64,000 nucleotides of DNA from an uncultured virus (IMG/VR IMGVR_UViG_3300037043_000022). Taxonomy: Duplodnaviria > Heunggongvirae > Uroviricota > Caudoviricetes. The position numbers and the translations under genes are program-made. Below, piece by piece: positions 1,391 to 62,401 of the stretch (within the stretch, counting starts at the first letter, position 1; every line of letters starts with the position of its first letter). The notes under the pieces are model-generated. The model made no database searches and was not told the origin of the DNA. It saw nothing but the letters and a program-made list of their open reading frames with translations. The stretch lies in the IMG/VR virus record IMGVR_UViG_3300037043_000022; one strand, 5' to 3'.

Positions 1391-1936
1391 ATGCACTGGA
1401 TGATAGACATAACTAAAGAGCAATTAGCTGACGTGCTTCAAGCCTGTCGTTCATTGGAAACGGTAAATTTGGCATTCAGCGGTGATTTGCCACCAGAAAC
1501 AATTATTGAGCTGTTATTGAACAATAAAGTAAATTTATCTGGTATCATCGGACAATTAGATAAGCAATTTCTATCTATATGTATGGCAGCAGTGCAACAG
1601 AATGGTTATGCACTTAAGTACATTAAAAATCAGACGCCAGAAATCTGTCTGGCGGCAGTAAAACAAAATGGTTGGGCACTTAAATATGTCAGGGAACAGA
1701 CACCAGAAATATATATGGCAGCAGTAAAACGAGATGGTTATGCACTTCACTTTATTAAAGAACAAACACCAGACATATGTTTAGCAGCAGTACAACGAAA
1801 TGGTCAGGCACTTCAACATGTTAAAAAACAAACACCTGAAATATGCATGGCAGCAGTACAACAAGATTGCCATGCACTTAATCTTGTTAGGGATCCAGCC
1901 ATTAAATGGGAGATAGAACGTGCATTGGCTCTCTGA
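1391..1936 (+). CDS. DUF4116-type 22-aa repeat protein with MHW leader
   Basis: EQTPEICxAAVxxNGxALxYVK repeats; MHWMIDITKEQLADV N-terminus. Confidence 0.85.
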   Translation: MHWMIDITKEQLADVLQACRSLETVNLAFSGDLPPETIIELLLNNKVNLSGIIGQLDKQFLSICMAAVQQNGYALKYIKNQTPEICLAAVKQNGWALKYVREQTPEIYMAAVKRDGYALHFIKEQTPDICLAAVQRNGQALQHVKKQTPEICMAAVQQDCHALNLVRDPAIKWEIERALAL

Positions 1937-2456
1937 GGTGACTAAAGAACAATTAGCTGACGTGATTAAAGCCTATCATTCATCCTTTGGGCTACTGAAT
2001 CAGAAGGAACCAGAAATAATTATTGATATGTTATTAAATGATGAAATAAACTTATGTGACATCATCAAACATTTAAATAAACAATTTCCAGCTATATGTC
2101 TGGCGGCAGTACAACAGTATAATTGGGCACTACAATATGTTAAGGAACAAACGCCAGAAATGTGTATGACAGCAGTACAGCAGAATGGTTGGGCACTTCG
2201 ATATGTCAAAAAACAGACACTAGAGATGTGTATGACAGCAATACAAGAAAGTGGCCATGTGCTTCAATGTGTCAAGGAACAAACGCCAGAAATCTGTATG
2301 GCAGCAATACAACAACAATGGGGTTGGGCACTACAATATGTCAAAGAACAGACGCCAGAAATATGTATGACATCAGTACAACGAGATAAGGATACACTTC
2401 AATTTGTTAGAAACCCAACTCTTAGAGAGGAGATAAAACGTGCATTGGCTCTCTGA
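1920..2456 (+). CDS. DUF4116-type repeat protein with MHW leader
   Basis: GTG start, MHWLSEVTKEQLADV leader, repeats. Confidence 0.85.
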   Translation: MHWLSEVTKEQLADVIKAYHSSFGLLNQKEPEIIIDMLLNDEINLCDIIKHLNKQFPAICLAAVQQYNWALQYVKEQTPEMCMTAVQQNGWALRYVKKQTLEMCMTAIQESGHVLQCVKEQTPEICMAAIQQQWGWALQYVKEQTPEICMTSVQRDKDTLQFVRNPTLREEIKRALAL

Positions 2457-2590
2457 AGTGATTAAAGAACAATTAGCTGACGTGATTAATGGTTGAAATA
2501 AACCCAATGTGCATCTTAATGCGCATCTTAATGCATTCTGAAAAGCTCTTCAATTTGTTAAAGACCCAACTCTTAAGAAAGAGATAGCTA
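2428..2590 (+). pseudogene. collapsed DUF4116 gene remnant
   Basis: RBS plus leader DNA (gtgcattggctctctgaagtgattaaagaacaattagctgacgtgatt), then a copy of the C-cap (cttcaatttgttaaagacccaactctt); repeats are missing. Confidence 0.7.
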
Positions 2591-2645
2591 AGACATCAAC
2601 AAAGTGTGGGAAGAATGGGAACGGGTGATGAGAGGGAGGTGACAG

Positions 2646-3185
2646 ATGGGTAAATTGGTGCTCGAAATTTTACAGGACGAATCCGCCCCAAATCCTCGCA
2701 AAGAATATGATTGTTTCGGCAAGATGGTGTGCTTTCATCGCCGTTATGACTTAGGCGATGAACATGATTTCAAACATGAAGATTTCAATGGATGGGATGA
2801 ATTAGAGGGCCATTTACGCAAAGAATTGAATGCGGAAATCGTCTTACCATTATATCTTTATGATCACAGTGGCATTACGATGAACGTTACCGGATTCTCC
2901 TGCTCATGGGACTCTGGGCAAGTTGGTCTCATCTATGCCACCAAAGAAATGATCATGGAGGAACATGGGGATTGTAATGAGGAATCACTCAAGAAGACGA
3001 AGGAATTGTTAATCGCGGAAGTGGCGACGTACGATCAATATTTACAAGGCGACGTTTGGGAATACGTAATAAAGGACAAAGATGGCACTTGTGTCGATTC
3101 ATGTGGTGGATTCTACAACAAGGAATATTGCGGAGAGGAGGCGAAACGCTCCCTCAAGACTTTGGAAGCACGCATTAAAAAATAA
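2646..3185 (+). CDS. conserved phage/MGE hypothetical protein
   Basis: PNPR...GKMVCFHRRYDLGD...LPLYLYDHSGITM...WDSGQVG motifs recalled from a widespread uncharacterised MGE family. Confidence 0.7.
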   Translation: MGKLVLEILQDESAPNPRKEYDCFGKMVCFHRRYDLGDEHDFKHEDFNGWDELEGHLRKELNAEIVLPLYLYDHSGITMNVTGFSCSWDSGQVGLIYATKEMIMEEHGDCNEESLKKTKELLIAEVATYDQYLQGDVWEYVIKDKDGTCVDSCGGFYNKEYCGEEAKRSLKTLEARIKK

Positions 3186-3200
3186 CGGAAGGATGAGAAA

Positions 3201-3644
3201 ATGACCAAAGAGGGCTATTGGATCACTGATAAGGACAGACGACATGAGGTTTATGATCATGCTCAATGGGCATCTGAACGCGGTCTAGTCGATAAGGATT
3301 TAAATCCACACAATGACAAAGACCGCGTTCAGATTCTGCTACAAGTCATGAACAAAGGTTGGATCAGAGTTAGAGGACATGGCAACAGCATTACTTTCGA
3401 ATTTTCCAAAAACACGGATTCAGCCCTCTGGTCCATTTATCTCTTTTTAGAGAAAACCGGAATGGCAGGGCCATATACGCAATTGATTGTCAACAACCTC
3501 CGAACCAAAGACATGATTGACGTGCCTTATGACGGATTTAAAAAGGCTATGAAGAGCGACGAGGTGTTGATGCGTGAAGGTCTAAAGTATAATTATGATG
3601 AGAAATTCATCGCCAGAATAAACCAGAGGTTACGTCAAATTTGA
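3201..3644 (+). CDS. hypothetical protein, paralog of 30773..31168
   Basis: Shared GxWI...H..WA...GW[IV]R[VM]R pattern. Confidence 0.65.
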   Translation: MTKEGYWITDKDRRHEVYDHAQWASERGLVDKDLNPHNDKDRVQILLQVMNKGWIRVRGHGNSITFEFSKNTDSALWSIYLFLEKTGMAGPYTQLIVNNLRTKDMIDVPYDGFKKAMKSDEVLMREGLKYNYDEKFIARINQRLRQI

Positions 3645-3665
3645 ATCACAAAAAGGAGTGGGCAA

Positions 3666-4151
3666 ATGACGCTAATCGAATTATTGACGATGGCGGACAA
3701 AGAAACCATCGATGACATATTGCAAGCTGCACATAAGATCAATAAAAATTGGGCAAGATATAAAGATGAAACGATTATCAAGAAATTATGTAATGATGGA
3801 ATTAGGGCAGGATATGAAGAAGTATCGATGTTCTTATCAGAACTTCGAAAACCGGAAAAATTCGCCCATGTTAGATTTAAAGTGCCGTTCAGTACGGCCA
3901 TGGTTCCAGCATTGACGCTTGTGATACGTGATGGCTACTTCTATAATAGAATGGTTGATAAACAAATAAAATTGGTAGAAAAATTGCTGATGGGTGGGGC
4001 AGACCCTCATGAGACATGCGAAATTGAAGGCTGGACTCCTATGAAATTCGCAAAGAACCTCAACGATAGTGACATAATCAACATGTTAGAAAATCAAGAA
4101 AGGAATTTAAATGCACTGGATGACGACCGTAACCAAAGAACAGTTAGCTGA
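3666..4151 (+). CDS. leader-domain protein with ankyrin-like C-terminus
   Basis: ADKETIDDILQAAHKINKNWARYKDETIIKKL resembles the DUF4116 leader; LLMGGADPH...GWTPMKFA is ankyrin-like. Confidence 0.65.
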   Translation: MTLIELLTMADKETIDDILQAAHKINKNWARYKDETIIKKLCNDGIRAGYEEVSMFLSELRKPEKFAHVRFKVPFSTAMVPALTLVIRDGYFYNRMVDKQIKLVEKLLMGGADPHETCEIEGWTPMKFAKNLNDSDIINMLENQERNLNALDDDRNQRTVS

Positions 4152-4905
4152 CGTAATCCGAGCAGTGAGAAAGACTGATAGCAATTATAAACAGATGAAG
4201 GATGAAGTGATTATTGAGATACTATTGACTCGCCCCGTCCGCGCTCCGTCCCTACGCGGGTATGGGCCCAAATCGCTGCCAAGCGGTGATGCACTAAAAC
4301 ATTTAAACAAGCAATTTCCAGAAATATGTATGGCAGCAGTGCAAGAAGATGGTTATGCACTTGAATATGTCAAGGAGCAGACGCCAGAAATCTGCATGGC
4401 GGCAGTAAAACAAAATGGTGGTGCACTTAAACATGTCAAATGTTCTGCGAACAACAAAGAGCAGACGCTAGAAATATGCATGGCAGCAGTAAGACAAAAT
4501 AGTCATGCACTTCAGCATGTCAAAAAACAAACACCAGAAATATGTATAGCAGCAGTACAACGACATGGTTCGGCACTTGAATATGTTAAGGAACAAACGC
4601 CAGAAATGTGTATGGCAGCAGTGCAGCAGAATAGCAATGCACTTGAACATGTCAAATGTTCTGCGAACAACAAAGAACAGACACCAGAAATCTGTATGGC
4701 AGCAGTAAAAGGTAATGGTTTGGTACTTCAATTTGTCAAGGAACAGACGCCAGAATTGTGCATGGCAGCGGTACAACGAAATGGTCATGCACTTGAATAT
4801 GTCAAGGAGCAGACACCAGAGATATGTACGGCAGCAGTGCAGCAAGATGGTGAAGCACTTGAATATGTTAACAAAAAATTCAAGATCAAGATTGTTGAGG
4901 GGTGA
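4111..4905 (+). CDS. DUF4116-type repeat protein with MHW leader (two CSANNK inserts)
   Basis: Leader plus about 8 repeats. Confidence 0.85.
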   Translation: MHWMTTVTKEQLADVIRAVRKTDSNYKQMKDEVIIEILLTRPVRAPSLRGYGPKSLPSGDALKHLNKQFPEICMAAVQEDGYALEYVKEQTPEICMAAVKQNGGALKHVKCSANNKEQTLEICMAAVRQNSHALQHVKKQTPEICIAAVQRHGSALEYVKEQTPEMCMAAVQQNSNALEHVKCSANNKEQTPEICMAAVKGNGLVLQFVKEQTPELCMAAVQRNGHALEYVKEQTPEICTAAVQQDGEALEYVNKKFKIKIVEG

Positions 4906-5656: not shown

Positions 5657-5707
5657 AAACTTCATGGGTGGACAATGGAAGAATTATCTTGACGTGTGGG
5701 TGAAAAC

Positions 5708-5830: not shown

Positions 5831-6640
5831 TTGGCGGCATTTCGCCGTGCCAGTCTGGTACTTAAATTTCTGAAGAAGCCACGATGAAACGCGGTAGGGT
5901 GCTGCAATTGTGAGAGGAGATAAGATGACGACCACAAACAAGGAACTGGCAGCGGTACAACGAAATGGTTGGGCACTTGAATATGTTAAGGAACAGACAC
6001 CAGAATTGTGTCTGGCAGCAGTGCAACAAAATGGTTCGGCACTTGAATATGTCAAGGAACAAACACCAGAATTATGCATGGCAGCAGTGCAACAGGATGG
6101 TCGGGCACTTGAATATGTCAAAAAACAGACGCCGGAATTATGCATGGCAGCAGTGCAACAGGATGGTCGGGCACTTGAATATGTTAAGAAACCGCCAGAA
6201 TTATGTATGGCAGCAGTGCAACAAGATGGGCGAGCGCTTGAATTTGTTGAAGAGCAGACACCAGAAATATGCATAGCAGCAGTACAACAACATGGTCTGG
6301 CACTCCAACATGTCAAGGAACAGACGCCAGAAATATGCCTGGCAGCAGTAAAACAACATAATTGGGCATTACAGTATGTTAAGGAGCAGACACCAGAAAT
6401 ATGTATGGCAGCGGTACAACGAAATGGTTGGGCACTTGAATATGTCGAAGAACAAACACCAGAAATATGTATGGCGGCAGCACAACAAAATGGTGGTGCA
6501 TTTGAATATGTCGAAGAACAGACGTTGGCGGCATTTCGTCGTGCCAGTCTGGTACTTCTTGAGGGACTAAACCAATCTGAAGAAGCCACGATGAAACGCG
6601 GTAGGGTGCTACAATTGTGAGAGGAGATGGATGACAACCA
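5823..6640 (+). repeat. ~110-bp direct repeats (5823-5933 and 6517-6640) flanking a DUF4116 repeat block
   Basis: aacagacgttggcggcatttcg...atgaaacgcggtagggtgct.caattgtgagaggagat occurs twice. Confidence 0.9.
5925..6620 (+). CDS. leaderless DUF4116-type repeat protein
   Basis: About 9 repeats, no MHW leader, ends KRGRVLQL. Confidence 0.75.
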   Translation: MTTTNKELAAVQRNGWALEYVKEQTPELCLAAVQQNGSALEYVKEQTPELCMAAVQQDGRALEYVKKQTPELCMAAVQQDGRALEYVKKPPELCMAAVQQDGRALEFVEEQTPEICIAAVQQHGLALQHVKEQTPEICLAAVKQHNWALQYVKEQTPEICMAAVQRNGWALEYVEEQTPEICMAAAQQNGGAFEYVEEQTLAAFRRASLVLLEGLNQSEEATMKRGRVLQL

Positions 6641-10533: not shown

Positions 10534-12089
10534 GCAAACTGAATTTGGCAAATTACATGCGTGCCGGATATCCAGCAATTTATCTGCAGACGGCCGAAGA
10601 GGGTCGTGCCGAATTGATGTTGTTGGATGCTGCCAAAGAATTGAATCGCAAAGTCACCTTCTGGTCACACTCTGAAGGTTGGCTCAAAGAGGTTTACGTC
10701 AAAGGCCAATGGAAAGAAGAAGAGAAGGACAAGGAATTGGATGATCCAGTGGGTGCCCTCCAAAAAGCGCTCGACGATACTGAAAGCGATGGCGTCGTAT
10801 ATGTCTTCCGGGACATACATCCCTTCTTTGAAATGCCAAAAGTCAGACGCATGATCAGGGACATCTGTCGGGAATTCAAATCGCAACAGAAGATGCTGAT
10901 TTGTCTCAGCCCGGTCAAATCAATCCCACAAGATTTGGAACGTGATCTGGTTCTCCTGGAATTCGATTTGCCATCAGAGAAAGACATCCTGTTAGTCTTG
11001 GATAATCTGATGTCTGAGAATAAGAACGTTTTCGGTAAGATCGAGGAAGAAGAAAAAGACATGATCATCCAATCAGCTATGGGGCTGACGATTGGTGAAG
11101 CGGAAAACGCAATCGCAAAGGCAGCAATCGACAAAAAGAAATTGAATCTTGATCTACCGATCAGTCGAATTGTCATGAAAGAAAAATCATTGGCGGTCAA
11201 AAAGAGCGGCATCTTGGAAATCTTCGAGGCGGTTGAGAAACCTGAAGACGTGGGTGGTTTGAACCGCTTGAAACGATGGCTCAAAAATCGCGTCCAACCA
11301 TGCTTCACCAAAGAGGCGAAACAGTATGGTCTGCCGTCGCCGAAGGGCGTCATGCTGGTGGGCCTGCCAGGGTGTGGTAAAAGCCTCGCCGCCAAAGCAG
11401 CATCAAACCTAATCGGCGTCCCACTCATTCGATTTGACGTCGGCAAAGTATTTGGGTCGTTGGTCGGTCAATCGGAAGCAAACGTGCGGACGGCCATCAA
11501 CACGATCGATGCCGTCGGTCGCTGCATCGTCTGGATCGATGAATTGGACAAGGCATTCGCCGGAATGGGCGGTAGCGGTGAGACTGACGGCGGCACCGGC
11601 AAACGGGTGTTCGGCACCTTCATTACGTGGATGCAGGAAAAGAAATCACAAGCCTTCATCATGGCCACAGTGAACAGAATTGATTTGTTGCCAGATGAAT
11701 TGCTCAGAAAAGGTCGCTTCGACGAAATCTTCTTCGTCGGTCTGCCGTCTGAGAGGGAACGTAAGGACATTTTTGAAATCCAAATCCGCAAACACGGTCG
11801 CGATCCAAAGAAGGTCGGCGTTGATGAATTGGTCAAACAATCTAGGGATTACAGTGGCGCAGAAATCGAACAAGCCGTCATCGGTGGATTGTTTCATGCT
11901 TATCACATGGGCGGTGATCGCCAATTGACCAAGGAACACATCTTGGCAGAAATGGACAGCTTCACACCATTGGCCAAATCACGCGCCAAGCAATTGGAGA
12001 CAATGGCAAATTGGGCCAAGGAAAACGCCACACCAGCCTCAGACGATGAGGAAGTAGAGACGACCAACGTCAGGAAATTGAGGGAATGA
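10530..12089 (+). CDS. Ycf46-like AAA+ ATPase
   Basis: Inactive N-terminal AAA-like domain (FRDIHPFF); Walker A GLPGCGKS, Walker B VWIDE, SRH LLRKGRFDE; SLVGQSE pore loop. Confidence 0.88.
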   Translation: MSKLNLANYMRAGYPAIYLQTAEEGRAELMLLDAAKELNRKVTFWSHSEGWLKEVYVKGQWKEEEKDKELDDPVGALQKALDDTESDGVVYVFRDIHPFFEMPKVRRMIRDICREFKSQQKMLICLSPVKSIPQDLERDLVLLEFDLPSEKDILLVLDNLMSENKNVFGKIEEEEKDMIIQSAMGLTIGEAENAIAKAAIDKKKLNLDLPISRIVMKEKSLAVKKSGILEIFEAVEKPEDVGGLNRLKRWLKNRVQPCFTKEAKQYGLPSPKGVMLVGLPGCGKSLAAKAASNLIGVPLIRFDVGKVFGSLVGQSEANVRTAINTIDAVGRCIVWIDELDKAFAGMGGSGETDGGTGKRVFGTFITWMQEKKSQAFIMATVNRIDLLPDELLRKGRFDEIFFVGLPSERERKDIFEIQIRKHGRDPKKVGVDELVKQSRDYSGAEIEQAVIGGLFHAYHMGGDRQLTKEHILAEMDSFTPLAKSRAKQLETMANWAKENATPASDDEEVETTNVRKLRE

Positions 12090-12128: not shown

Positions 12129-12788
12129 ATGCACTGGATGACGAACGCAAGTAAGGAACAATTGAATGATGTGATTGAAGCAGTGAGAAAGTTTGATGGC
12201 AATTATAAACAGATGAAGGACGAAACGATCGTTAAGAAATTATTGGATGATGAGATTCGGGTTTTAAGTGATGTGCTTAAACATTTAGACAATCAATTTC
12301 CAGCCATATGCCTGGCAGCAGTACAACAATGGGGTCATGTACTTGTATATGTCAAGGAACAGACACCAGAAATATGCATGGCGGCAGTACGACAAAATGG
12401 TGCAGCACTTGAACACGTCAAGGAACAAACACCAGAAATATGCATGGCAGCAGTACAACAAGATAATGATGCACTTAAATATGTCAAGGAACAGACGCCA
12501 GAAATATGTATGGCAGTAGTACAACAATGGGGTTGGGTACTTGTATATGTCAAAAAACAGACGCCAGAAATATGCCTGGCAGCAGTACAACAAGATGGTG
12601 ATGCACTTCGGTTTGTCAAAAAACAGACGCCAGAAATATGCATGGCCGCAGTACGACAAAATGGTGCAGCACTTGAATATGTCAAAGAACAGACGCCAGA
12701 AATATGCATGGCAGCGGTAAGACAAAATGGTGATGCACTTAAATATGTTGATAGGAAATTCAAGACCAAGATCTGCATTCTGGCATAG
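12129..12788 (+). CDS. DUF4116-type repeat protein with MHW leader
   Basis: Leader plus about 7 repeats. Confidence 0.87.
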   Translation: MHWMTNASKEQLNDVIEAVRKFDGNYKQMKDETIVKKLLDDEIRVLSDVLKHLDNQFPAICLAAVQQWGHVLVYVKEQTPEICMAAVRQNGAALEHVKEQTPEICMAAVQQDNDALKYVKEQTPEICMAVVQQWGWVLVYVKKQTPEICLAAVQQDGDALRFVKKQTPEICMAAVRQNGAALEYVKEQTPEICMAAVRQNGDALKYVDRKFKTKICILA

Positions 12789-12798: not shown

Positions 12799-13410
12799 GT
12801 GCACTGGATGACGAACGCAAGCAAGAAACAAATAAGCGACGTAATTCAAGTAGTGCAGAAGATTGACGATTATAAACAGATGAAGGATGAAACGATTGTA
12901 GAGAGATTGTTGAACAATGAAATAAGCTTGTGGGGCGTACTCCATGATTTGGGCGATCAATTTCCTGAAATATGCATGGCAGCAGTACAACGAAATGGTT
13001 ATACAATTAAATTCGTCAAAGATCAGACGCCAGAGATATGTCTGGCGGCAGTAAAACAAAATGGTCAGGCGCTTGAATATGTAAAAAAGCAGACGCCGGA
13101 AATATGTATGGCAGCAGTAAAAGAAAATGGTTGGGCACTTCGATATGTCAAAAAACAGACACCTGAAATATGTCTGGCGGCAGTAAAACAAAATGGTCAG
13201 GCGCTTGAATATGTAAAAAAGCAGACGCCGGAAATATGTCTGGCAGCAGTGCAGAAATGCGGGATGGCGCTTGAATTTGTTAAAAAGCAGACGTTGGAAA
13301 TTTGCACTGCAGCGATTGATGCAGCAATTGCAGCAAATATGACGGAGGTAATAGATTTTGTCGATACAACTAAATTTGAAATAGAATCACTTTCCATAAA
13401 GAAGAAGTAG
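12799..13410 (+). CDS. DUF4116-type repeat protein with MHW leader
   Basis: GTG start, leader plus about 5 repeats. Confidence 0.87.
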   Translation: MHWMTNASKKQISDVIQVVQKIDDYKQMKDETIVERLLNNEISLWGVLHDLGDQFPEICMAAVQRNGYTIKFVKDQTPEICLAAVKQNGQALEYVKKQTPEICMAAVKENGWALRYVKKQTPEICLAAVKQNGQALEYVKKQTPEICLAAVQKCGMALEFVKKQTLEICTAAIDAAIAANMTEVIDFVDTTKFEIESLSIKKK

Positions 13411-13433
13411 AGAAACGTCAGGAAATTGAGGGA

Positions 13434-13772
13434 ATGACGACCATCAATGTTGATGGTCGTCTGCTCCGTGGACGCAGAAAGAGGAGAATGAAAATGAAAA
13501 AACAAAAGAAGCAAAAGAAGCAAAAACCGGACATTCGTGAATTTAAGATAGTTTTCACAAGGAAGTCAAGAAGTGGCTTTACTGTAAATGGAAAGGAATG
13601 GAATTGCGACTATTGTTCTTGGTGGATTGGTCTATTGTTCTTGGTGGATTGGTTAATGGATCACCATATAAAAATCAACATCAAGGATGATATTAACAGT
13701 GGAAATGTAATGCCATTCATAGATGAATCAGACAAAAAGAAGAAGCAGAGACGACCAACGTCAGGAAATTGA
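13434..13772 (+). CDS. basic hypothetical protein
   Basis: Bounded by two copies of the AAA gene 3' end; true start may be about 13488. Confidence 0.45.
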   Translation: MTTINVDGRLLRGRRKRRMKMKKQKKQKKQKPDIREFKIVFTRKSRSGFTVNGKEWNCDYCSWWIGLLFLVDWLMDHHIKINIKDDINSGNVMPFIDESDKKKKQRRPTSGN

Positions 13773-17636: not shown

Positions 17637-18413
17637 ATGAATGAACCGAAGTGGAGACCAATGCCGTTCAAGGAATTTATTGCATCATCATTAGCGACGC
17701 GGGAAATCGTCGAAGACATATTGCAAGCAATGCGAAAAGTCGACAAAAACGTCTTACGAATGACGGATCATAAATTGATGGCTAATTTGATTGAACATGC
17801 CGACACTGGACATAAAAAATATTCTCTCATAAATGGAACATGGATTTATAACATGAAATGCAAAGTGCCGGAATTGATTCTACAGACATACACGAACGTC
17901 AATAGAGGTCACATTACAATCCCATCAGAATTAGATAATTTTGAATTCCGCCATGCAGCGATGCATGCCGCATCCGAAAAATGTGTCAGTAATTTCCTAA
18001 ATCAATGCAAGCATAGTTGCAAGCATTTGAATTATACGGAAGAACAAATCAGGGAGTTGACAATCATCGCGATCAACGTTAACCCAAAATTACCCTTAGA
18101 CTACGGTTATGCCATGGGTGATGACATGAAATTGATCGCAATTAAAAAAAGTCGATCGCCGTGGTTGTTACATAAACTTCGGTTCAAAGACAAACAAACG
18201 CTGCTCGAAGCACAAATGATAGTTGCTGAAAACATGGCCAACAAAAGAGATCTGTACGTCGATGAATTTTCGGAATTCATACGCATAATGCCAAACGAAC
18301 ACAGACATCTGAACAGCATGATCAGAACGTGGATCGAGAACACGGAGGAGAAAAATGGACAAAAAAGAAATGCAGATGCTGTTGGAACGAGTAGCCGCAG
18401 CCAGGATGGATGA
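17637..18413 (+). CDS. helical protein with divergent leader domain
   Basis: ATREIVEDILQAMRKVDKNVLRMTD resembles the DUF4116 leader. Confidence 0.6.
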   Translation: MNEPKWRPMPFKEFIASSLATREIVEDILQAMRKVDKNVLRMTDHKLMANLIEHADTGHKKYSLINGTWIYNMKCKVPELILQTYTNVNRGHITIPSELDNFEFRHAAMHAASEKCVSNFLNQCKHSCKHLNYTEEQIRELTIIAINVNPKLPLDYGYAMGDDMKLIAIKKSRSPWLLHKLRFKDKQTLLEAQMIVAENMANKRDLYVDEFSEFIRIMPNEHRHLNSMIRTWIENTEEKNGQKRNADAVGTSSRSQDG

Positions 18414-21423: not shown

Positions 21424-22191
21424 ATGGACGTTTCACAGTGGTTGGAAACTGCCACCAAGGAGGAAATAGACGACATCATCGAAGCCGTGCACAATGTAAA
21501 TGGAAACACGGCACGATGGAATCCGGCCACATGTTTGAAAAGATTAATGTCTTACCCCATAAAAGATCTCTACCCATATCTTAAGAATGAACGCACTAAA
21601 GAATTATTGTTCGATCCAGCATGGTACGCACATCGGGATACCCGTGCTATGGTGTGCAAGCATGCACCAATTCATTTAGTTGAAAGATTTACGAAAGAAT
21701 TTTTGTTGACTATGTCGAAAAACGGACGATTAATAAAGGTCATAGAAATTCTAAAGAATCAACCATCCTTCGAAAGAGTGGCCATCATTACGTCACTCTA
21801 TGATCCAGAGTTGAATTTGTTCATCAACAATTCATTCGTTTTATCTCAGTATCTGCCCAGTGCCATGCTCGCAACGGTTGCTCGCGTATATCCCAAAATG
21901 ATAAGTTGTCTAAGCCATTATGTAATGATGAGTAACGTTGAACTTTTTGACATCATGTTTTCTCTTTTACCGACAGATGCACCAAAGATTCTGTCAGGTT
22001 TTGAACCAATCAAGGATTTACGCATAGCGATGAAGGCAGTCAAATGTAATCCTCGTTGTCTGCCCTATTTGGATGCCAGCATACAATCACAAATATTCGA
22101 GGAAATCGGATATGACGTGATGTCAGAAGCTGCCATCAAATGCATAGAAAGAAGCACACAAGGGATGTGGAAAGGAGAATGCCATGGGTAG
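21424..22191 (+). CDS. helical repeat protein with divergent leader domain
   Basis: WLETATKEEIDDIIEAVHNVNGN resembles the leader; IAMKAVKCNPRCLPYL is a degenerate DUF4116-like repeat. Confidence 0.65.
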   Translation: MDVSQWLETATKEEIDDIIEAVHNVNGNTARWNPATCLKRLMSYPIKDLYPYLKNERTKELLFDPAWYAHRDTRAMVCKHAPIHLVERFTKEFLLTMSKNGRLIKVIEILKNQPSFERVAIITSLYDPELNLFINNSFVLSQYLPSAMLATVARVYPKMISCLSHYVMMSNVELFDIMFSLLPTDAPKILSGFEPIKDLRIAMKAVKCNPRCLPYLDASIQSQIFEEIGYDVMSEAAIKCIERSTQGMWKGECHG

Positions 22192-22571: not shown

Positions 22572-23105
22572 ATGCACTGGATGATGAACGCAAGCAAGGA
22601 ACAGTTGGCTGATGTAATCCAAGCAGTAAAGAAGATAAACAATAATTATGAACGAATGAAGGATGTAACGATTGTCAAGAAACTGATGAATGATGAAGTA
22701 AATCTATTGAATGTGTTCAAACATTTGGACAAGCAATTTCCAGAAATCTGCATAGCAGTAGTAAAACAACGTAGTTATGCACTTGAATGCATCGAAAAAC
22801 AGACACCAGAATTGTGTTTAGTTGCAGTACAACAAAATGGTTTGGCACTAAAATATGTGAAGGAGCAGACACCAGAAATATGTATGGCAGCAGCGCAAGA
22901 AAACGGTTATGCGCTTCAGCATGTTAAGAAACAGACACCAGAAATCTGTCTGGCAGCAGTACAACAGGACGGTTCGGCACTTAAATATGTCAAAGAACAG
23001 ACACTAGAAACGTGCATGGCGGCAGCACAAGGAAATGATACAGTGTTTGATCTCATCGATAAGACTAAATTCAGGGTCGAAATCGAGATCACAAAAATCA
23101 CATAA
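22572..23105 (+). CDS. DUF4116-type repeat protein with MHW leader
   Basis: Leader plus about 5 repeats. Confidence 0.87.
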   Translation: MHWMMNASKEQLADVIQAVKKINNNYERMKDVTIVKKLMNDEVNLLNVFKHLDKQFPEICIAVVKQRSYALECIEKQTPELCLVAVQQNGLALKYVKEQTPEICMAAAQENGYALQHVKKQTPEICLAAVQQDGSALKYVKEQTLETCMAAAQGNDTVFDLIDKTKFRVEIEITKIT

Positions 23106-24626: not shown

Positions 24627-24847
24627 TGATAAAAATCAAATTAGGAAATAAAGCGAGAGACGTGAATTTGGTCCTTCCATCCGGCAAAGAAATTTTACTG
24701 CAATGGCGATTGGAAGCGCCATCTTTGGACATATGTCTGCCATACGTAACATCCGTCACAAACATGAAAAAAGAAATGCCTGGCAAATCGCATAAAGCCG
24801 ATCAAATTGTCATTGACGTCAACCCAGAAGATCTAAAGGAGAAATGA
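24623..24847 (+). CDS. hypothetical protein
   Basis: AAGGAG RBS, ATGA coupling. Confidence 0.55.
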   Translation: MMIKIKLGNKARDVNLVLPSGKEILLQWRLEAPSLDICLPYVTSVTNMKKEMPGKSHKADQIVIDVNPEDLKEK

Positions 24848-35243: not shown

Positions 35244-35582
35244 ATGTCAAATGAACCTGAACAACCAAATGCATTATTGGAAGTGTTAAAATCAGAAATC
35301 TTATTGAAAGCCAAAACCCCATTTGACATAGACGTCTCGAAATCACAGTGCACCATCAAAATGAATTGGCGTCACGTAGTCGTTATTACGATAACCGACC
35401 ATACACTCGACATCAGCGGCAATTTCGATCGTGAATCCATCCCACTTGAAAGACTGAAACCGGTACGATTGGCGTCGGCAATCGCACGATATGTAGATCA
35501 GATAACCATCGAAAATAATAAAATAATAGCTGAACTTCGCAAAAATTACGCCTATGCTAAAGACGAAAAAAGTGAACAATAA
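35244..35582 (+). CDS. hypothetical protein
   Basis: AAGGAGG RBS. Confidence 0.6.
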   Translation: MSNEPEQPNALLEVLKSEILLKAKTPFDIDVSKSQCTIKMNWRHVVVITITDHTLDISGNFDRESIPLERLKPVRLASAIARYVDQITIENNKIIAELRKNYAYAKDEKSEQ

Positions 35583-39675: not shown

Positions 39676-40308
39676 ATGCATTGGCTGATGGATATAACCA
39701 AAGAACAATTACAAGACGTAATTCGGACTGCGAAACGTAGTTATAAGCCTCATAATCTCTCTAATCTTACTGATGTTCGTATAATCGAGAAATTATTCAA
39801 CAACGAGGTAAATCTACATTATGTATGTAAGAGCATGAATGAACAATTTCCAGCAATCTGCATAGCAGCAGTAAAACAGGATGTGAGCGGCAAAGCACTT
39901 AAATGTGTCAAGAAACAGACGCCAGAGATATGTCTGGCAGCAGTACAACAAGACGGTCATGCACTTCAATATGTTAAGGAACAGACACCAGAGATATGTC
40001 TGGCAGCAGTACAACAAGACGGTCATGCACTTCAATATGTTAAGGATCAGACGCCAGAGATATGTATAACAGCAGTAAAACAATATGGTTGGGTACTTCG
40101 ATATGTCAAAGAACAGACGCTAGAAATATGTATGGTGGCAGTACAGCGACATGGTTGGGCACTTAAGTATGTCAGGGAACAAACGCCAGAAATGTGTATG
40201 GCAGCAGTGAAACAAAGCCACCCAATGTCATGCACATATAAACACATCAAAGATCCAGTTCTTAAAGAAGAATTCAAAACGTGGGGAGTTAAAAAATGCA
40301 TTGGCTGA
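39676..40308 (+). CDS. DUF4116-type repeat protein with MHW leader
   Basis: MHWLMDITKEQLQDV plus repeats. Confidence 0.87.
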   Translation: MHWLMDITKEQLQDVIRTAKRSYKPHNLSNLTDVRIIEKLFNNEVNLHYVCKSMNEQFPAICIAAVKQDVSGKALKCVKKQTPEICLAAVQQDGHALQYVKEQTPEICLAAVQQDGHALQYVKDQTPEICITAVKQYGWVLRYVKEQTLEICMVAVQRHGWALKYVREQTPEMCMAAVKQSHPMSCTYKHIKDPVLKEEFKTWGVKKCIG

Positions 40309-41048
40309 TGGATATAACCAAAGAACAATTACAAGACGTAATCCAGACTGCAAAGCATGGTTATGATCTTATGTCTCCAGAAAATAGGTCCGTCATCACA
40401 GACACATCGGAACATGGCATAATTGAGAGATTGTTATGTGGTAAGATAGATTTATATTTTATCTTGGGACATATGAATAGACAATTTCCAGCGATTTGCA
40501 TGGCTGCCGTGCAACAAAATGGTTATGCACTCAGACTTGTCAAGGAACAAACACCAGAAATATGTCTGGCTGCAGTACAACAGAACGGCTATGCGCTTGA
40601 ATTTGTCAAAGAACAGACGCCAGAAATATGCCTGGCAGCAGTAAAAGATAATGGTTATGCTCTCCAAGATGTCAGAAGACAGATATTAGAAGGCATCTAT
40701 GGCGCACAAATACGTATGGCAGCGATAAGACAACAAGGCCATGCACTCAAATACATCGGAGAGCAAACACCCGAAATGTGTATGGCAGCAGTGCAACAAA
40801 ATGGTTGGGCACTGCAATTTGTCAAGAGTCAGACGCCAGAGATATGTATGGCAGCAATAAAACAAGATGGTCGAGCGCTTGAATATGTCAAGAATCAGAC
40901 ACCAGAAATATGTATGACAGCAGTGCGACAGGATGGTGGGGCACTTAAATATGTCAAGGAACAGACGCCAGAAATATGTTTAACTGCGGTGCAGCAATAT
41001 GGTCCAGCGCTTAAATATATGGCGGCGAACGTGCCGCCTAGGAGTTAA
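40296..41048 (+). CDS. DUF4116-type repeat protein with MHW leader
   Basis: MHWLMDITKEQLQDV plus repeats. Confidence 0.87.
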   Translation: MHWLMDITKEQLQDVIQTAKHGYDLMSPENRSVITDTSEHGIIERLLCGKIDLYFILGHMNRQFPAICMAAVQQNGYALRLVKEQTPEICLAAVQQNGYALEFVKEQTPEICLAAVKDNGYALQDVRRQILEGIYGAQIRMAAIRQQGHALKYIGEQTPEMCMAAVQQNGWALQFVKSQTPEICMAAIKQDGRALEYVKNQTPEICMTAVRQDGGALKYVKEQTPEICLTAVQQYGPALKYMAANVPPRS

Positions 41049-41051
41049 AAA

Positions 41052-41495
41052 ATGCACTGGCTGATGGATATAACTAAAGAACAATTACAAGACGTAATCC
41101 AGATTGTAAAGCATGGTGCCGCCGTCGGCGCTTTCGGTTATAATATGGAACGCAGTACAACGGATTATGAGATCGTCGAAAAATTATTAAACGATGAAAT
41201 AGATTTATATTACATATGCAATAACATAGATAAACAATTCCCCGCAATTTGTATGGCAGCAGTAAGACAAGATGGTTATGCACTGAATTGCATTAAGGAG
41301 CAGACGCCAGAATTGTGTATGGCCGCAGTACAACAAGATGGTTGGGCACTACAATTTGTCAAGGATCAGACGCCAGAAATATGCCTGGCAGCAGTAAGAC
41401 AAAATGATAACACTCACCGTTTCATTAGAAGCACAGAACTTCGTGCATCTATTAGAAGAGGTGATAAATTGGCCGATACAACCCTTTTACCATAG
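41052..41495 (+). CDS. DUF4116-type repeat protein with MHW leader
   Basis: MHWLMDITKEQLQDV plus about 3 repeats. Confidence 0.85.
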   Translation: MHWLMDITKEQLQDVIQIVKHGAAVGAFGYNMERSTTDYEIVEKLLNDEIDLYYICNNIDKQFPAICMAAVRQDGYALNCIKEQTPELCMAAVQQDGWALQFVKDQTPEICLAAVRQNDNTHRFIRSTELRASIRRGDKLADTTLLP

Positions 41496-47408: not shown

Positions 47409-47921
47409 GTGCACTGGATGATGAGCGCAAGCAAGGAACAATTAGCTGACGTAATTGAAGCAGTAAGGAAGATAAACAATGATTATGAACAAATGAAGGA
47501 TGAGGAAATTGTCGAGAAACTGTTGAGTGATGAAATAAATTTTTGTGAGATACTTAAACGTTTGGATAAACAATTCCCTGAGATCTGTATGGCAGCCATA
47601 ACGAAAGATGATTGGGATTTCCTTAGCGGCGGAAAATACACACTGAGCGTAACCACTGGTCGAACGATAGATCACGTTAAGGAGCAGACGCCGGAAATGT
47701 GTCTGGCAGCAGTAAAACAGGATGGTCATGCACTTGAATATGTCAGAGAACAAACACCAGAAATATGCATGGCAGCAATAAAACAAAATAGCAATGCACT
47801 TCAATATGTCAAAGACGAGAGATTAAGGAAGGAATTAAGGAAGGAAATATGCGAACAAGTGCCTGTGCAATGGTTTGCACCCGCTGGTCTTTTGGAACGA
47901 ACGCAAAGAAAGGAGCAATAA
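47409..47921 (+). CDS. DUF4116-type repeat protein with MHW leader
   Basis: GTG start, MHWMMSASKEQLADV. Confidence 0.85.
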   Translation: MHWMMSASKEQLADVIEAVRKINNDYEQMKDEEIVEKLLSDEINFCEILKRLDKQFPEICMAAITKDDWDFLSGGKYTLSVTTGRTIDHVKEQTPEMCLAAVKQDGHALEYVREQTPEICMAAIKQNSNALQYVKDERLRKELRKEICEQVPVQWFAPAGLLERTQRKEQ

Positions 47922-59555: not shown

Positions 59556-60260
59556 ATGCATTGGATGATGGAAGTGACCGATAAACAGTTGCAGGACGTG
59601 TTTCGAGCCGTAAGAAGCATAGATGATGTCCATGCTTCAATGAAAGACAAAAAAATTGTCAAGAAATTACTGGATGATGACATAGATTTATATGAGACGC
59701 TTGCGCATTTAGATAAACAATTCCCCGCAATTTGTATGGCCGCAGTAAAACAGAATGGCCATGCACTCTTATTTATCAAAGAACAGACGCCAGAATTATG
59801 TTTAGCGGCAGTAAAACAGAATTGTTGGGCACTTGAATATGTCAAAGAACAGACGCCTGAATTATGTATGGCAGCAGTGAAGCAGGATGAATTCGTCCAC
59901 TGTTTCCATTTTGTCAAAGAACAGACGCCAGAGATATGTATGGCGGCAATAAAACAAAATGGTCGGGCACTTCAATGGATCAAAGAGCAGACACCAGAAA
60001 TGTGTATGATGGCAGTAAAACGACATGGCCCAGTACTTGAATATGTTAAATGTTCTGCGAACAACAAAGGGCAGACGCCAGAAATATGCATGGCAGCAGT
60101 AAAACAAGACGGTTATGCACTCAAATATGTCATAGAACAGACACCAGAGATATGTATGGCGGCAATAAAACAAAATGGTCGGGCATTTGAATTCGTCAAG
60201 AATGAAAAGCTTCGTACATCATTGAGAAAAGCAGGGATAGGAGCAGAACCCTCATGTTAG
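59556..60260 (+). CDS. DUF4116-type repeat protein with MHW leader (one CSANNK insert)
   Basis: MHWMMEVTDKQLQDV plus about 7 repeats. Confidence 0.87.
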   Translation: MHWMMEVTDKQLQDVFRAVRSIDDVHASMKDKKIVKKLLDDDIDLYETLAHLDKQFPAICMAAVKQNGHALLFIKEQTPELCLAAVKQNCWALEYVKEQTPELCMAAVKQDEFVHCFHFVKEQTPEICMAAIKQNGRALQWIKEQTPEMCMMAVKRHGPVLEYVKCSANNKGQTPEICMAAVKQDGYALKYVIEQTPEICMAAIKQNGRAFEFVKNEKLRTSLRKAGIGAEPSC

Positions 60261-60846: not shown

Positions 60847-60849
60847 CAT

Positions 60850-61212
60850 ATGGACGAACGAAATAAGATCGCCGCATTAAAATCATTAGATGACATGTTA
60901 AAATTAGAACGTGATTGGGATGGATATGGGTCAGAAGCACCAAATATAATTGCGGTCGATTTAGCAAAGAGAACAATCATGTCTGCGTACGAGAAAACGT
61001 TCCCTTGGACTAACGTCTTAGCAAGTGTACAAGAAGGCGTAGCGATATCATTCACCACACCCTCAAATAAAACATATGCATATGTTGAGACTTACAATGT
61101 TGGTGAAATTACTGCACTCGTCTGTGTGAATGGTCAAATCCGGAGTTGGGACATCCCTCCTGCTGAGTTAGATCAACATATAGAAAACATACGGAATGCA
61201 ATTCTCAGATAA
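60850..61212 (+). CDS. conserved hypothetical protein (L..DWDGYG..AP family)
   Basis: LERDWDGYGSEAP. Confidence 0.65.
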   Translation: MDERNKIAALKSLDDMLKLERDWDGYGSEAPNIIAVDLAKRTIMSAYEKTFPWTNVLASVQEGVAISFTTPSNKTYAYVETYNVGEITALVCVNGQIRSWDIPPAELDQHIENIRNAILR

Positions 61213-61216
61213 AACA

Positions 61217-61244
61217 TTGACGACAACGGAACCAGTATTAAAAA
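61217..61244 (+). promoter_or_regulatory. putative promoter TTGACG-N16-TAAAAA
   Basis: Intergenic; resembles the 17137 and 32648 sites. Confidence 0.35.
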
Positions 61245-61279
61245 ATGAGAAGAATGCAGCAATTTTGGAGGGTTAAGAC

Positions 61280-61747
61280 ATGTTAAGCGAGCATGAATTG
61301 GTTGTTAAAGTCAGAATAGAATTATACCCAACCGCTAAAAAAGTCAATGACACTTGCGAGGCACTATTCAATACCTCCTTCAAACAAGCGATAGGACCGA
61401 CTGGGGTAACTGGAACAAACGAGTTGGCGTGGACCGTTCATTATCTGAGATCAGCGGCGGGCATGCTTGAACGGATTGGTGCTGCCGGAGATCTTGTTGA
61501 TGTGTCTACCGAAACTATAGAAGAATTATACAAAATTGCCGTAGGTCTCGACAGGACTTGTCATTCGTTATTTGAACAGCACATTTATCCAGGATGTCCG
61601 CCAACTGGAGTAGGCGGATCAAGCAGATTGGACTTTACCGCCGGTTATCTTAAATCATCGGCAAGCATGCTCGAACGCATTGGAGGTGATAAAGGTTTTG
61701 TTGAAAAACAAGCGCAATGGGAACGGGGAGTGGACGATTTGTACTGA
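61280..61747 (+). CDS. protein made of two internal repeats
   Basis: ELY..A.....TC..LF.......PTGV.G...L..T..YL.S.A.MLERIG occurs twice. Confidence 0.7.
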   Translation: MLSEHELVVKVRIELYPTAKKVNDTCEALFNTSFKQAIGPTGVTGTNELAWTVHYLRSAAGMLERIGAAGDLVDVSTETIEELYKIAVGLDRTCHSLFEQHIYPGCPPTGVGGSSRLDFTAGYLKSSASMLERIGGDKGFVEKQAQWERGVDDLY

Positions 61748-61783
61748 ATTATCGGTGTGATTTGATGTGCAAGGAGATAAAAC

Positions 61784-62401
61784 ATGCATTGGCTCTCTGA
61801 GGTGACTAAAGAACAATTGAATGACGTGATCCAGGCAGTGAGGAAGATTGATGATAATCATAAAAACATGGAGGACGAAATGATCGTTGAGCAATTATTG
61901 AATGATAAAGTGTCTTTATATTCCTTCTGGTGTGATGTACTTAAACATTTAGATAAACAATTTCCTGAAATATGCATAACGGCGGTACGAGAAGACTGTA
62001 ATGCACTTCAATATGTCAAGGAACAGACGCCAGAAATGTGTATAGCAGCAGTGCAACGAATTGGTTGGGCACTTCGATATGTCAGAGAGCAGACGCCAGA
62101 AATGTGTATAGCAGCAGTGCAATGGGATGGTTCGGCACTTGAATACGTCAAAGAACAGACGCCAGAAATCTGTCTGGCAGCAGTAAAACAAAATAATGAC
62201 GCGCTTGGGCATATCAGAGATGAGAAATTAAGAGGGATAGTTGGACAAATGTTGGTTGGCCACGTGAGCGAAATTAAGCGAGCTTTCATATACAATGGCA
62301 ATGTCTTCTGTTCCTTACAGGAGGCGAGGGCGGCGAAGAAAGAACATGAGTCGAAAAATAAAGACGAAGAATTACTCATTGAGCACATCGTTATTGGTTA
62401 G
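61784..62401 (+). CDS. DUF4116-type repeat protein with MHW leader
   Basis: MHWLSEVTKEQLNDV plus about 4 repeats. Confidence 0.87.
   Translation: MHWLSEVTKEQLNDVIQAVRKIDDNHKNMEDEMIVEQLLNDKVSLYSFWCDVLKHLDKQFPEICITAVREDCNALQYVKEQTPEMCIAAVQRIGWALRYVREQTPEMCIAAVQWDGSALEYVKEQTPEICLAAVKQNNDALGHIRDEKLRGIVGQMLVGHVSEIKRAFIYNGNVFCSLQEARAAKKEHESKNKDEELLIEHIVIG

What the first reader, a model, noticed from the sequence alone, without database searches (positions are those of the whole stretch)
1391..62401. Expanded family of 'constant leader + variable solenoid' proteins: a candidate phage substrate-adaptor system
Seen: 14 genes share a ~45-aa leader (MHW[ML]xx[AVI][ST]KEQLxDVIxAVRKxxxxYxxMKDExIVxKLLxDEI) followed by about 3-8 DUF4116-type repeats (1391, 1920, 4111, 12129, 12799, 22572, 25485, 35582, 39676, 40296, 41052, 47409, 59556, 61784). 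A recognisable version of the leader also starts three proteins with different bodies: 3666 (KETIDDILQAAHKINKNWARYKDETIIKKL plus ankyrin-like tail), 21424 (WLETATKEEIDDIIEAVHNV) and 17637 (ATREIVEDILQAMRKVDKN). Established: a constant docking domain on interchangeable repeat binders is how F-box/ankyrin adaptors of eukaryotic viruses work. Inference: the leader is an independent docking or targeting module (for a protease/AAA ATPase, or for packaging/injection) and the repeats pick targets such as host defence proteins.
Basis: partly seen in the sequence, partly recalled or inferred. Interest (0 to 1): 0.9.

Follow-up and report, generated by a model that had tools for sequence, protein, structure and literature searches.

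The report
Phage repeat-protein family with shared head
A very large uncultured groundwater phage carries about nineteen genes whose proteins all start with the same small, previously undescribed helical domain, joined mostly to variable helical repeat arrays that look like binding surfaces. What the shared domain attaches to is still unknown.

Summary
All 14 listed genes exist at the stated starts. Each has a ~50-residue N-terminal leader followed by 3-8 22-residue DUF4116 repeats.

A profile built only from those 14 leaders finds 3666 (E 3.5e-13), 21424 (E 1e-7) and 17637 (E 9.7e-5) among 2,141 genome ORFs. The leader is a separate, portable domain:
- it heads an ankyrin-type protein, two other helical bodies and a probable 94-aa stand-alone ORF;
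- it is predicted to fold alone into the same helices as in the full protein;
- it shows no likeness to the repeat unit;
- it heads 23 further metagenomic proteins, always at the N-terminus.

It matches no Pfam family, no solved fold, and none of 50,697 phage records.

Its function is unproven. The adaptor idea (constant docking head, variable binding body) is the best reading, at about 0.4. The link to the AAA ATPase is weakened, because the two adjacent family genes are an insertion flanked by a duplicated ATPase 3' end.

The scan noted this family before on other DNA (e1-5404455).

The parts
1391..1936 (+). leader + DUF4116 array (181 aa, 4 repeat anchors)
1920..2456 (+). leader + DUF4116 array (178 aa, GTG start, 5 anchors)
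3666..4151 (+). leader + ankyrin-type body (161 aa)
   Evidence: leader HMM E 3.5e-13. 34% identity over 175 aa to P0022, which scores Pfam Ank_2 at 7.6e-13.
4111..4905 (+). leader + DUF4116 array (264 aa, 8 anchors; 13-aa insertion in the leader)
5910..6620 (+). leaderless DUF4116 array (236 aa, 7 repeats). A 35-nt copy of its own 3' end lies upstream at 5869-5903.
12051..12089 (+). 3' end of the AAA ATPase gene, first copy of the duplicated junction
12129..12788 (+). leader + DUF4116 array (219 aa, 7 anchors); this is the protein that was modelled
12799..13410 (+). leader + DUF4116 array (203 aa, GTG start, 6 anchors)
13404..13437 (+). second copy of the AAA gene's 3' end (10 + 24 identical bases), closing the inserted pair 12129/12799
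17637..18413 (+). leader + degenerate helical body (258 aa)
   Evidence: leader HMM E 9.7e-5. hhalign prob 92%, running into the first repeat helix. Body homologue P0027.
21424..22191 (+). leader + unrelated helical body (255 aa)
   Evidence: leader HMM E 1e-7. hhalign prob 95%, leader only. Orthologue P0013, 41% identical over its full length.
22572..23105 (+). leader + DUF4116 array (177 aa, 5 anchors)
24844..25488 (+). chimeric gene: an acidic N-terminal body with an internal duplication, ending in 1.5 DUF4116 repeats
   Evidence: repeat HMM E 1.1e-18
25485..26177 (+). leader (MKKRKNAW variant) + DUF4116 array (230 aa, 7 anchors)
35582..36148 (+). leader + divergent DUF4116 array (188 aa)
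39676..40308 (+). leader + DUF4116 array (210 aa, 6 anchors); first of three tandem genes
40296..41048 (+). leader + DUF4116 array (250 aa, 7 anchors)
41052..41495 (+). leader + DUF4116 array (147 aa, 3 anchors)
47409..47921 (+). leader + DUF4116 array (170 aa, GTG start, 3 anchors)
59556..60260 (+). leader + DUF4116 array (234 aa, 7 anchors)
61784..62401 (+). leader + DUF4116 array (205 aa, 4 anchors) with a non-repeat C-terminal tail

Best explanation
SHOWN. The window is one arm of a 320-kb uncultured phage with a contractile tail. It holds a lineage-specific multigene family. Each protein starts with a ~50-residue, four-helix domain (consensus W-x5-KEQLxDVIxAVRKIxxNYxxMKDxTIVKKL). Most continue as an alpha-solenoid of 3-8 two-helix DUF4116 repeats of 22 residues (consensus EQTPEICMAAVQQNGWALEYVK). 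The leader is a distinct, portable domain that also heads an ankyrin-type protein, two other helical proteins and probably a 94-aa stand-alone ORF. It recurs at the N-terminus of 23 metagenomic proteins from related, diverged phages.

INFERRED. The solenoid bodies are variable protein-binding surfaces, because variation is concentrated at repeat positions 14, 16, 19 and 20, in and next to the short second helix. The constant leader gives every member one common property, most likely docking onto a single shared partner or site in the infected cell. The family would then work as a set of interchangeable adaptors, or recruiters, for different targets.

The partner and the targets are unknown. 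The confidence given is for the adaptor mechanism. The statement that the leader is an autonomous portable domain I hold at about 0.85.
For: Family membership:
- 14 of 14 genes pass the Pfam DUF4116 cut-off.
- A repeat HMM finds 17 repeat-bearing ORFs among 2,141, all within about 70 kb.

Portability of the leader:
- The 14-leader HMM hits 3666, 21424 and 17637.
- hhalign matches are limited to the leader.
- Pairwise BLAST among nine of the library proteins (seven external, two identical to window proteins) plus w3666 aligns mostly the first ~50 residues only.
- A probable stand-alone leader ORF exists.

Occurrence outside this genome:
- The profile search of 1.84 billion representatives gave 34 hits. 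These are 6 identical to window proteins, 3 near-identical variants, 2 repeat-motif false positives and 23 external proteins, all matched within the first 31 residues.
- Of the 23, 12 carry DUF4116, 1 carries ankyrin repeats and 10 have no Pfam family.
- A GC-54% relative has leader+ANK and leader+DUF4116 genes 3 kb apart.

Autonomy of the fold:
- The leader modelled alone gives pLDDT 82.9 and pTM 0.63, with the same helices as in the full-length model (pLDDT 93.9).
- The repeat HMM scores <=1.3 bits on the 14 leaders.

Selection: mean pN 0.35 against pS 0.73 over 91 pairs, and median dN/dS 0.30 in the 46 unsaturated pairs. The paralogues are therefore old and constrained at the protein level.

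Variable surface: entropy over 82 repeats is 3.65, 2.89, 2.34 and 2.24 bits at positions 16, 19, 20 and 14, against <=0.6 at seven framework positions (2-5, 7, 10).

Analogy:
- In low-GC giant-virus contigs the same EQTPEIC repeat subtype is joined to a C-terminal RING finger (zf-C3HC4 23.8 bits against a cut-off of 21). Neighbouring genes there encode U-box and RING proteins.
- In another 145-kb viral contig, 12 of 14 DUF4116 ORFs share a different constant leader.
Against: - No partner was identified and no binding was tested.
- The leader has no recognisable relative among Pfam families (the best family is matched by only 2 of 17 leaders) or solved structures (best Z 3.3). Nothing therefore says it is a docking domain rather than some other small domain.
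- The full-length model is one rigid body with no low-confidence linker, which also fits a cap.
- The hhalign match for the 17637 type runs on into the first repeat helix.
- Entropy at four positions shows variability, not binding, and I ran no test for positive selection.
- Expression is not shown. Metatranscriptome contigs cover 21 of 30 bins in each of two runs, but DNA carry-over is not excluded.
Confidence: 0.4

Rival explanations
1. The leader is only a structural N-terminal cap or folding and solubility element of a paralogous family. It is conserved by descent and has no partner of its own.
For: - The full-length model is a single rigid body (pTM 0.83) with no disordered linker.
- The last leader helix sits where a repeat's second helix would sit, and the hhalign match of the 17637 type runs into repeat 1.
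- No partner or known docking fold was found.
Against: - The leader heads an ankyrin-type body and the 21424 body, where hhalign matches only the leader.
- It probably occurs alone.
- DUF4116 arrays do without it: w5910 lacks it, and 0 of 1,195 ORFs in 17 IMG/VR loci match it at E<=0.01.
- It has no sequence likeness to the repeat.
- It is predicted to fold alone.
Confidence: 0.2
2. The leader is a virion-incorporation signal. It takes the proteins into the head or tail for injection with the DNA, like the capsid-targeting sequence of T4 internal proteins.
For: - The phage has head, portal, terminase, sheath and baseplate genes.
- A constant N-terminus on variable cargo is the layout of T4 internal proteins (recalled, not from a call).
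- An earlier scan note (e1-5730271, unchecked) describes a DUF4116 gene captured into a late polyprotein of another phage.
Against: - The leader is a folded 50-residue domain, not a ~10-residue peptide.
- No conserved acidic cleavage-type motif lies at the leader/body junction; position 17 varies among E, Q, K and R.
- The genes lie among ligase, ATPase, nucleotidyltransferase and helicase-methylase genes, more than 95 kb from the head genes found (window 42959-106958 against head genes at about 202-215 kb of the contig).
- No proteomic data exist.
Confidence: 0.15
3. The leader is an oligomerisation module that joins family members into homo- or hetero-oligomers with several binding arms.
For: It is a small helical N-terminal domain with a conserved hydrophobic pattern, shared by about 19 co-encoded proteins. 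A stand-alone copy could act as a competitor (inference only).
Against: There is no positive evidence. Promiscuous pairing among 19 paralogues has no obvious logic.
Confidence: 0.1
4. The constant 5' region matters at the DNA level, as a homology anchor for recombination that shuffles or inserts repeat cassettes.
For: - Chimeric and truncated members exist (24844, 5910).
- Flanking duplications mark insertions.
- Contig joints run between paralogues (22768->12548 in X1 and X5; 22897->26096 in X5 only).
- Variants are known that are identical except for exactly 1 or 2 missing repeats.
Against: - Synonymous sites in the leader are near saturation (mean pS 0.73), so DNA homogenisation is not recent.
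- The domain is conserved at protein level in lineages of 43% and 54-56% GC.
- The joints and repeat deletions may be assembly artefacts.
Confidence: 0.07

Closest known systems
Pfam DUF4116 (PF13475) repeat proteins, including multi-copy sets in cultured large phages (Bacillus phage AgentSmith, Agrobacterium phage Atu_ph07, Salicola phage SCTP-2, Pseudoalteromonas phage Slicky01)
   Same: The bodies are bona fide DUF4116 arrays. tblastn with w5910 finds 5 records from 4 phages, with 15 places in AgentSmith. The fold is an alpha-solenoid, as modelled in PMC8078820 (passages read) and here.
   Different: None of the 50,697 phage records has the leader (tblastn E<=1). The AgentSmith paralogues show no family-wide constant head. 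The function of DUF4116 is unknown everywhere: 4 papers hold the term, 3 were listed, and I read passages of 2.
Substrate-receptor families of eukaryotic viruses: a repeat array plus a ubiquitin-ligase domain (DUF4116+RING in giant-virus contigs seen here; poxvirus ankyrin/F-box-like proteins, recalled)
   Same: A constant small domain joined to a variable repeat array, amplified as a multigene family. The giant-virus proteins use the same EQTPEIC repeat subtype, up to 67% identical in the best segment.
   Different: The leader is not a RING or an F-box: neither appears among the Pfam matches of the 17 leaders. It is N-terminal, and the host is a bacterium with no SCF system (inferred from the phage gene set). 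No enzymatic hub is known.
T4 internal proteins with an N-terminal capsid-targeting sequence (recalled from the literature, not read here)
   Same: A constant N-terminus on unrelated or variable cargo proteins in a large tailed phage.
   Different: The leader is a ~50-residue folded domain rather than a ~10-residue peptide. No cleavage motif was seen, the genes are not near the head genes, and virion presence is untested.
Second 'constant leader + DUF4116' family in a 145-kb viral contig (loci L017/L023)
   Same: 12 of 14 tandem DUF4116 ORFs share one N-terminal head and vary in repeat number from 4 to 13.
   Different: The head (MDxISKxxIDHKLQTGKKxTLKEFLEY) is unrelated to the MHW leader (leader HMM E>=1.2). 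The genes are strictly tandem rather than dispersed.

Membership tests
Pfam DUF4116 (PF13475) | whole-protein score above the curated cut-off (24.9 bits) | tested here: met
   14 of 14 listed genes score 40.1-150 bits and w5910 scores 177 bits. w24844 scores 20.7 bits, below the cut-off. 3666, 21424 and 17622 have no hit.
Pfam DUF4116 (PF13475) | alpha-solenoid of short two-helix repeats | tested here: met
   The AF2 model of w12129 has pLDDT 93.9 and regular 10+6-residue helix pairs every 22 residues. This is a prediction only. Foldseek finds no solved relative at E<=0.001.
F-box substrate receptors | F-box motif recognisable by sequence | tested here: not met
   No F-box family appears among the 15 Pfam families matched at E<=10 by any of the 17 leaders.
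F-box substrate receptors | F-box three-helix fold | tested here: inconclusive
   VIA-align gave a best Z of 3.3. A Cdc4 chain (1nex_B) appears at Z 2.9, tied with dozens of unrelated helical domains.
F-box substrate receptors | a Skp1/cullin partner in the host | not testable with these tools
   The host is unknown. The genome is a tailed phage, so a bacterial host is inferred.
RING-type DUF4116 proteins of giant viruses | RING finger joined to the array | tested here: not met
   There is no RING hit in any window protein. RING is present in L016 and L018.
T4-type capsid-targeted internal proteins | short N-terminal targeting peptide followed by a prohead-protease site | tested here: not met
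   The leader is a folded ~50-residue domain. No conserved acidic cleavage motif is seen in the alignment.
T4-type capsid-targeted internal proteins | presence in the virion | not testable with these tools
   The phage is uncultured and no proteome is available.
Ankyrin repeat proteins (body of 3666) | Pfam Ank-family match | tested here: inconclusive
   w3666 has no Pfam hit at E<=0.001. It is 34% identical over 175 aa to P0022, which scores Ank_2 at 7.6e-13.

The most novel reading that the evidence does not exclude
The MHW leader is a docking domain that plugs about 19 different binders into one phage- or host-encoded machine, such as an unfoldase, protease or other hub. That would give a bacterial virus a repertoire of interchangeable substrate adaptors. 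It would be the prokaryotic-virus counterpart of the RING/F-box repeat-protein families of giant viruses and poxviruses, built on the same DUF4116 repeat.
Probability: 0.2. Interest if true: 0.85.

Novelty: new variant of a known kind. Interest (0 to 1): 0.6.

Why it matters
DUF4116 arrays are common in large phages, giant viruses and protists, yet no function is known for them.

Here the same repeat subtype is tied to three different constant modules:
- the MHW leader in this phage;
- a second, unrelated leader in another viral contig;
- RING fingers in giant viruses.

This argues that the arrays are target-recognition parts and that the constant module sets what happens to the target. The leader is a small, well-defined bait of 53 residues, predicted to fold alone. 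That makes the question directly testable by pull-down: finding its partner would assign a function to a whole class of phage 'dark matter' genes. It might also reveal a phage system for recruiting many host proteins to one machine.

Tried and rejected
Searches for leader relatives that gave nothing:
- Word-indexed search of 5.8 billion proteins with residues 1-53 of w12129: 2 candidates, none significant.
- The search for related loci with the external-leader alignment A3: 285 pattern matches in viral contigs and 594 in metagenome contigs, none confirmed.
- The search for related loci with P0022 in viral contigs: none.

Attempts to name the leader that gave nothing:
- ESM Atlas on residues 1-45: best score 0.80 and structure TM 0.45-0.60 on about 40 residues. 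These are leads only.
- Pfam on the 17 leaders at E<=10: no shared family.
- Foldseek PDB and VIA-align wide on the leader model: no E<=0.001 match and best Z 3.3. RNAP omega, UBA, ET, death-fold and PKA docking domains are all tied.
- Foldseek on the full-length model: best is a designed armadillo protein at E 0.036.

Other tests without a result:
- Complex prediction of two leader copies: score 0.02 against a mark of 0.42, no verdict either way.
- Idea that the leader is a degenerate repeat: repeat HMM <=1.3 bits on all 14.
- Idea that the 21424 body is a hidden DUF4116 array: hhalign matches the leader only and the repeat HMM is not significant.
- Promoter search: enriched 8-mers upstream of genes are only Shine-Dalgarno words, and sigma-70-like sites are fewer than in shuffles (28 against 35.7). 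Timing of expression could not be inferred.
- Metatranscriptome contigs leave 9 of 30 bins uncovered in each RNA run. This says nothing about silence.
- A literature search with a 2-letter term failed and was not repeated.

Full report
**Setting**

The window is the minus strand of bases 42959-106958 of a single 320,399-bp contig. Of 78 ORFs of 300 aa or more outside the window, PHROGs names these among others:
- a major head protein, a portal, a large terminase, a tail sheath and tube, and a baseplate wedge;
- a UvsX-like recombinase, a DnaB-like helicase, a split DNA polymerase, ribonucleotide reductase and a sigma factor.

It is therefore a very large contractile-tailed phage. Megablast finds no near relative among 50,697 phage records. 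Near-identical DNA occurs in groundwater and coal metagenome runs. In the window, about 93% of the sequence is covered by plus-strand ORFs.

Each of the 14 starts opens a frame of 147-264 aa. Most of the 17 listed starts are preceded by an AGGAG/GGAG-type ribosome-binding site. Pfam DUF4116 passes its curated cut-off in 14 of 14. The repeat unit is 22 residues, with consensus EQTPEICMAAVQQNGWALEYVK. There are 3-8 anchors per protein, and 56 of 67 spacings are exactly 22. The leader aligns without trouble over about 52 columns up to the first repeat.

A repeat HMM run against all 2,141 six-frame ORFs of the genome finds 17 repeat-bearing ORFs:
- the 14 listed genes;
- a 15th leader-bearing gene just outside the window;
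- a leaderless gene at 5910-6620;
- a chimeric gene at 24844-25488, whose unrelated acidic body ends in 1.5 repeats.

All 17 lie within about 70 kb.

**The leader is a separate domain**

An HMM built only from the 14 leaders hits 3666 (46 bits, E 3.5e-13), 21424 (29 bits, E 1e-7) and 17622/17637 (19 bits, E 9.7e-5). Profile-profile comparison gives 95% probability for the 21424 type, confined to residues 5-55. It gives 92% for the 17637 type.

The 17637 match runs on into the first repeat helix (VPEL... against QFPAIC...). That protein is therefore probably a degenerate family member rather than a truly foreign body.

The body of 3666 is 34% identical over 175 residues to a metagenomic protein that scores Ank_2 at 7.6e-13, so it is a different repeat class.

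A 94-aa ORF between the sigma-factor and primase genes is a probable stand-alone leader. It scores E 0.004 with the 14-sequence HMM and 5e-7 with a 42-row HMM that did not include it.

The repeat HMM scores at most 1.3 bits on any leader. The leader is therefore not a decayed repeat.

**Structure predictions**

The full-length w12129 model has pLDDT 93.9 and pTM 0.83. Its leader helices are at residues 3-6, 9-20, 31-39 and 46-52, followed by regular two-helix repeats.

The 53-residue leader modelled alone, with a 42-row alignment, keeps the same helices at pLDDT 82.9 and pTM 0.63. This argues for an autonomous fold.

Neither model has a significant solved relative. Pfam has no family for the leader.

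**Outside this genome**

The leader profile, run against 1.84 billion representative proteins, gave 34 hits at E<=0.001. From the sequences they sort as follows:
- 6 are identical to window proteins;
- 3 are near-identical variants;
- 2 are false positives caused by an internal TKEQ(V/L)QD repeat;
- 23 are external.

All 23 external proteins carry the match within their first 31 residues. Twelve have DUF4116 at E<=0.01, one has ankyrin repeats, and ten have no Pfam family. One of the ten (P0013) is a full-length orthologue of 21424, 41% identical. All are metagenomic.

Short contigs of 54-56% GC share several window genes: DUF6744 at 68%, a DUF1257-like protein at 72%, DUF2997 at 75%, and leader+ANK at 35% identity. 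One of them carries leader+ANK and leader+DUF4116 genes 3 kb apart. The domain and its use on two repeat classes are therefore conserved across a diverged phage clade.

Close relatives of the repeat part in IMG/VR lack the leader altogether: 0 of 1,195 ORFs in 17 loci match at E<=0.01. No cultured phage has the leader.

**Evolution**

Synonymous differences between leaders are near saturation (mean pS 0.73), while non-synonymous differences are half that (pN 0.35 over 91 pairs; median dN/dS 0.30 in the 46 unsaturated pairs). The copies are old and the leader is held by selection on the protein.

The family is also rearranged:
- Genes 12129 and 12799 lie between two copies of the last ~39 bases of the AAA ATPase gene (12051-12089 and 13404-13437). 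They were inserted at that gene junction. This follows a lead from an earlier scan note on other DNA, which I tested here.
- Gene 5910 has a 35-base copy of its own 3' end just upstream.
- Two library proteins are 100% identical to w39676 and w12799 apart from exactly one and two missing repeats.
- DNA contigs show joints between paralogues.

The last two may be assembly collapse, because contigs regularly break inside the repeats.

**What it probably does**

Within the repeat, seven framework positions (Q2, T3, P4, E5, C7, A10) have 0.6 bits of entropy or less, and V11 has 0.72. Positions 16, 19, 20 and 14 reach 3.65, 2.89, 2.34 and 2.24 bits (82 repeats). Positions 16, 19 and 20 lie on one face of the short second helix in the model. 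This is the pattern of a repeat scaffold with a variable binding face, though I ran no test for positive selection.

Comparative evidence says such arrays are coupled to a constant functional module:
- In low-GC giant-virus contigs the same repeat subtype ends in a RING finger, among U-box, RING and SNF2-RING genes.
- In a 145-kb viral contig, 12 of 14 tandem DUF4116 ORFs share another, unrelated constant head.

I therefore favour the adaptor reading: a variable body that binds different targets and a constant leader that docks them to one partner or place. I hold this at about 0.4.

The partner is unknown. Gene order does not point to the AAA ATPase, since that adjacency is an insertion scar. 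The rivals are a plain cap, a virion-incorporation signal, an oligomerisation module and a DNA-level recombination anchor. They are set out with their evidence in the Rival explanations section.

**Expression**

Two metatranscriptome runs hold 100%-identical short contigs over 21 of 30 bins each. These include the starts of 12129, 12799, 17637 and 22572. DNA in RNA libraries is not excluded, so this is only a weak hint that the arm is transcribed in nature.

**Novelty**

The term DUF4116 occurs in 4 papers of the library (3 were listed). I read passages of two of them, and neither treats phage families. I searched jumbo-phage literature once and read passages of PMC7824862. These mention other lineage-specific expansions but not this one.

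The scan itself has noted this family before on other DNA (e1-5404455: a 320-kb groundwater phage, 16 copies, head new, function unproven). My results agree. They add the non-DUF4116 carriers, the external homologues, the autonomous-fold prediction and the giant-virus RING comparison.

I class it as a new variant of a known kind: a viral multigene family of repeat proteins with a constant module, built on a new domain.

Noticed in passing
window 12051-12089 and 13404-13437: The last ~39 bases of the AAA ATPase gene are duplicated (10 + 24 identical bases) on either side of family genes 12129 and 12799. This looks like an insertion scar at a tightly packed gene junction. The 23-mer I counted (within the 24-base block) occurs exactly twice in the genome.
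   Followed up: yes
window 24844-25488: A 214-aa acidic protein with an internal duplication (…LVFDVKTMTMTKKK, twice) ends in 1.5 DUF4116 repeats. Its stop overlaps the start of the next family gene as ATGA. It looks like a recombination chimera.
   Followed up: partly
window 5700-5910: Out-of-frame relics of a family gene's C-terminal end (KQTLAAFRRASLVL…; a 35-base exact copy at 5869-5903 of 6576-6610) lie just upstream of the leaderless gene 5910.
   Followed up: partly
window 6951-7349, 8511-8726, 10392-12089: A DUF1257-like protein, a DUF2997 protein and a 565-aa AAA ATPase (phrog_8638) lie close together. The first two are 72-75% conserved in the GC-54% relative. DUF2997-DUF1257 (ycf35) clusters are listed for cyanobacteria in PMC4284462 (one passage read).
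   Followed up: partly
window 48215-52075: A 1,286-aa fusion of a ResIII/DEAD helicase with an Eco57I/MmeI-type DNA methyltransferase domain.
   Followed up: no
window 7361-8002; 43819-44388; 26394-28316; 31169-31819: A DUF2204/AbiEii-like nucleotidyltransferase, an HD_4 domain protein, an NAD-dependent DNA ligase with BRCT, and a short ATP-dependent-ligase-like ORF.
   Followed up: no
L017 39-8363 and L023 8770-11991 (two ends of one 144,798-bp viral contig): Of 14 DUF4116 ORFs, 12 share a different constant head (MDxISKxxIDHKLQTGKKxTLKEFLEY) with 4-13 repeats. This is a second, independent 'constant leader + array' family.
   Followed up: partly
L016 9872-11266, L018 1728-3233, L016 5187-7301: In giant-virus-type contigs (GC 25%), DUF4116 arrays end in a RING finger. 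Neighbouring genes include a U-box+Vint protein, an SNF2-RING helicase and further RING proteins.
   Followed up: partly
P0006, P0008 (library proteins) against window 12799 and 39676: They are 100% identical except for the exact loss of two repeats and one repeat, each between identical flanking repeats. This is either real copy-number polymorphism or assembly collapse.
   Followed up: partly
window 22897->26096 (run X5) and 22768->12548 (runs X1, X5): Contig joints link different family genes. The first would delete 3.2 kb between paralogues. Depth is low (4.6) and the joints lie in repeats, so assembly artefacts are likely.
   Followed up: no
L009 16205-16489: A 94-aa ORF between the sigma-factor and primase genes looks like a leader with only a short tail. 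It lacks the conserved Trp and the NYxxMKD loop.
   Followed up: partly
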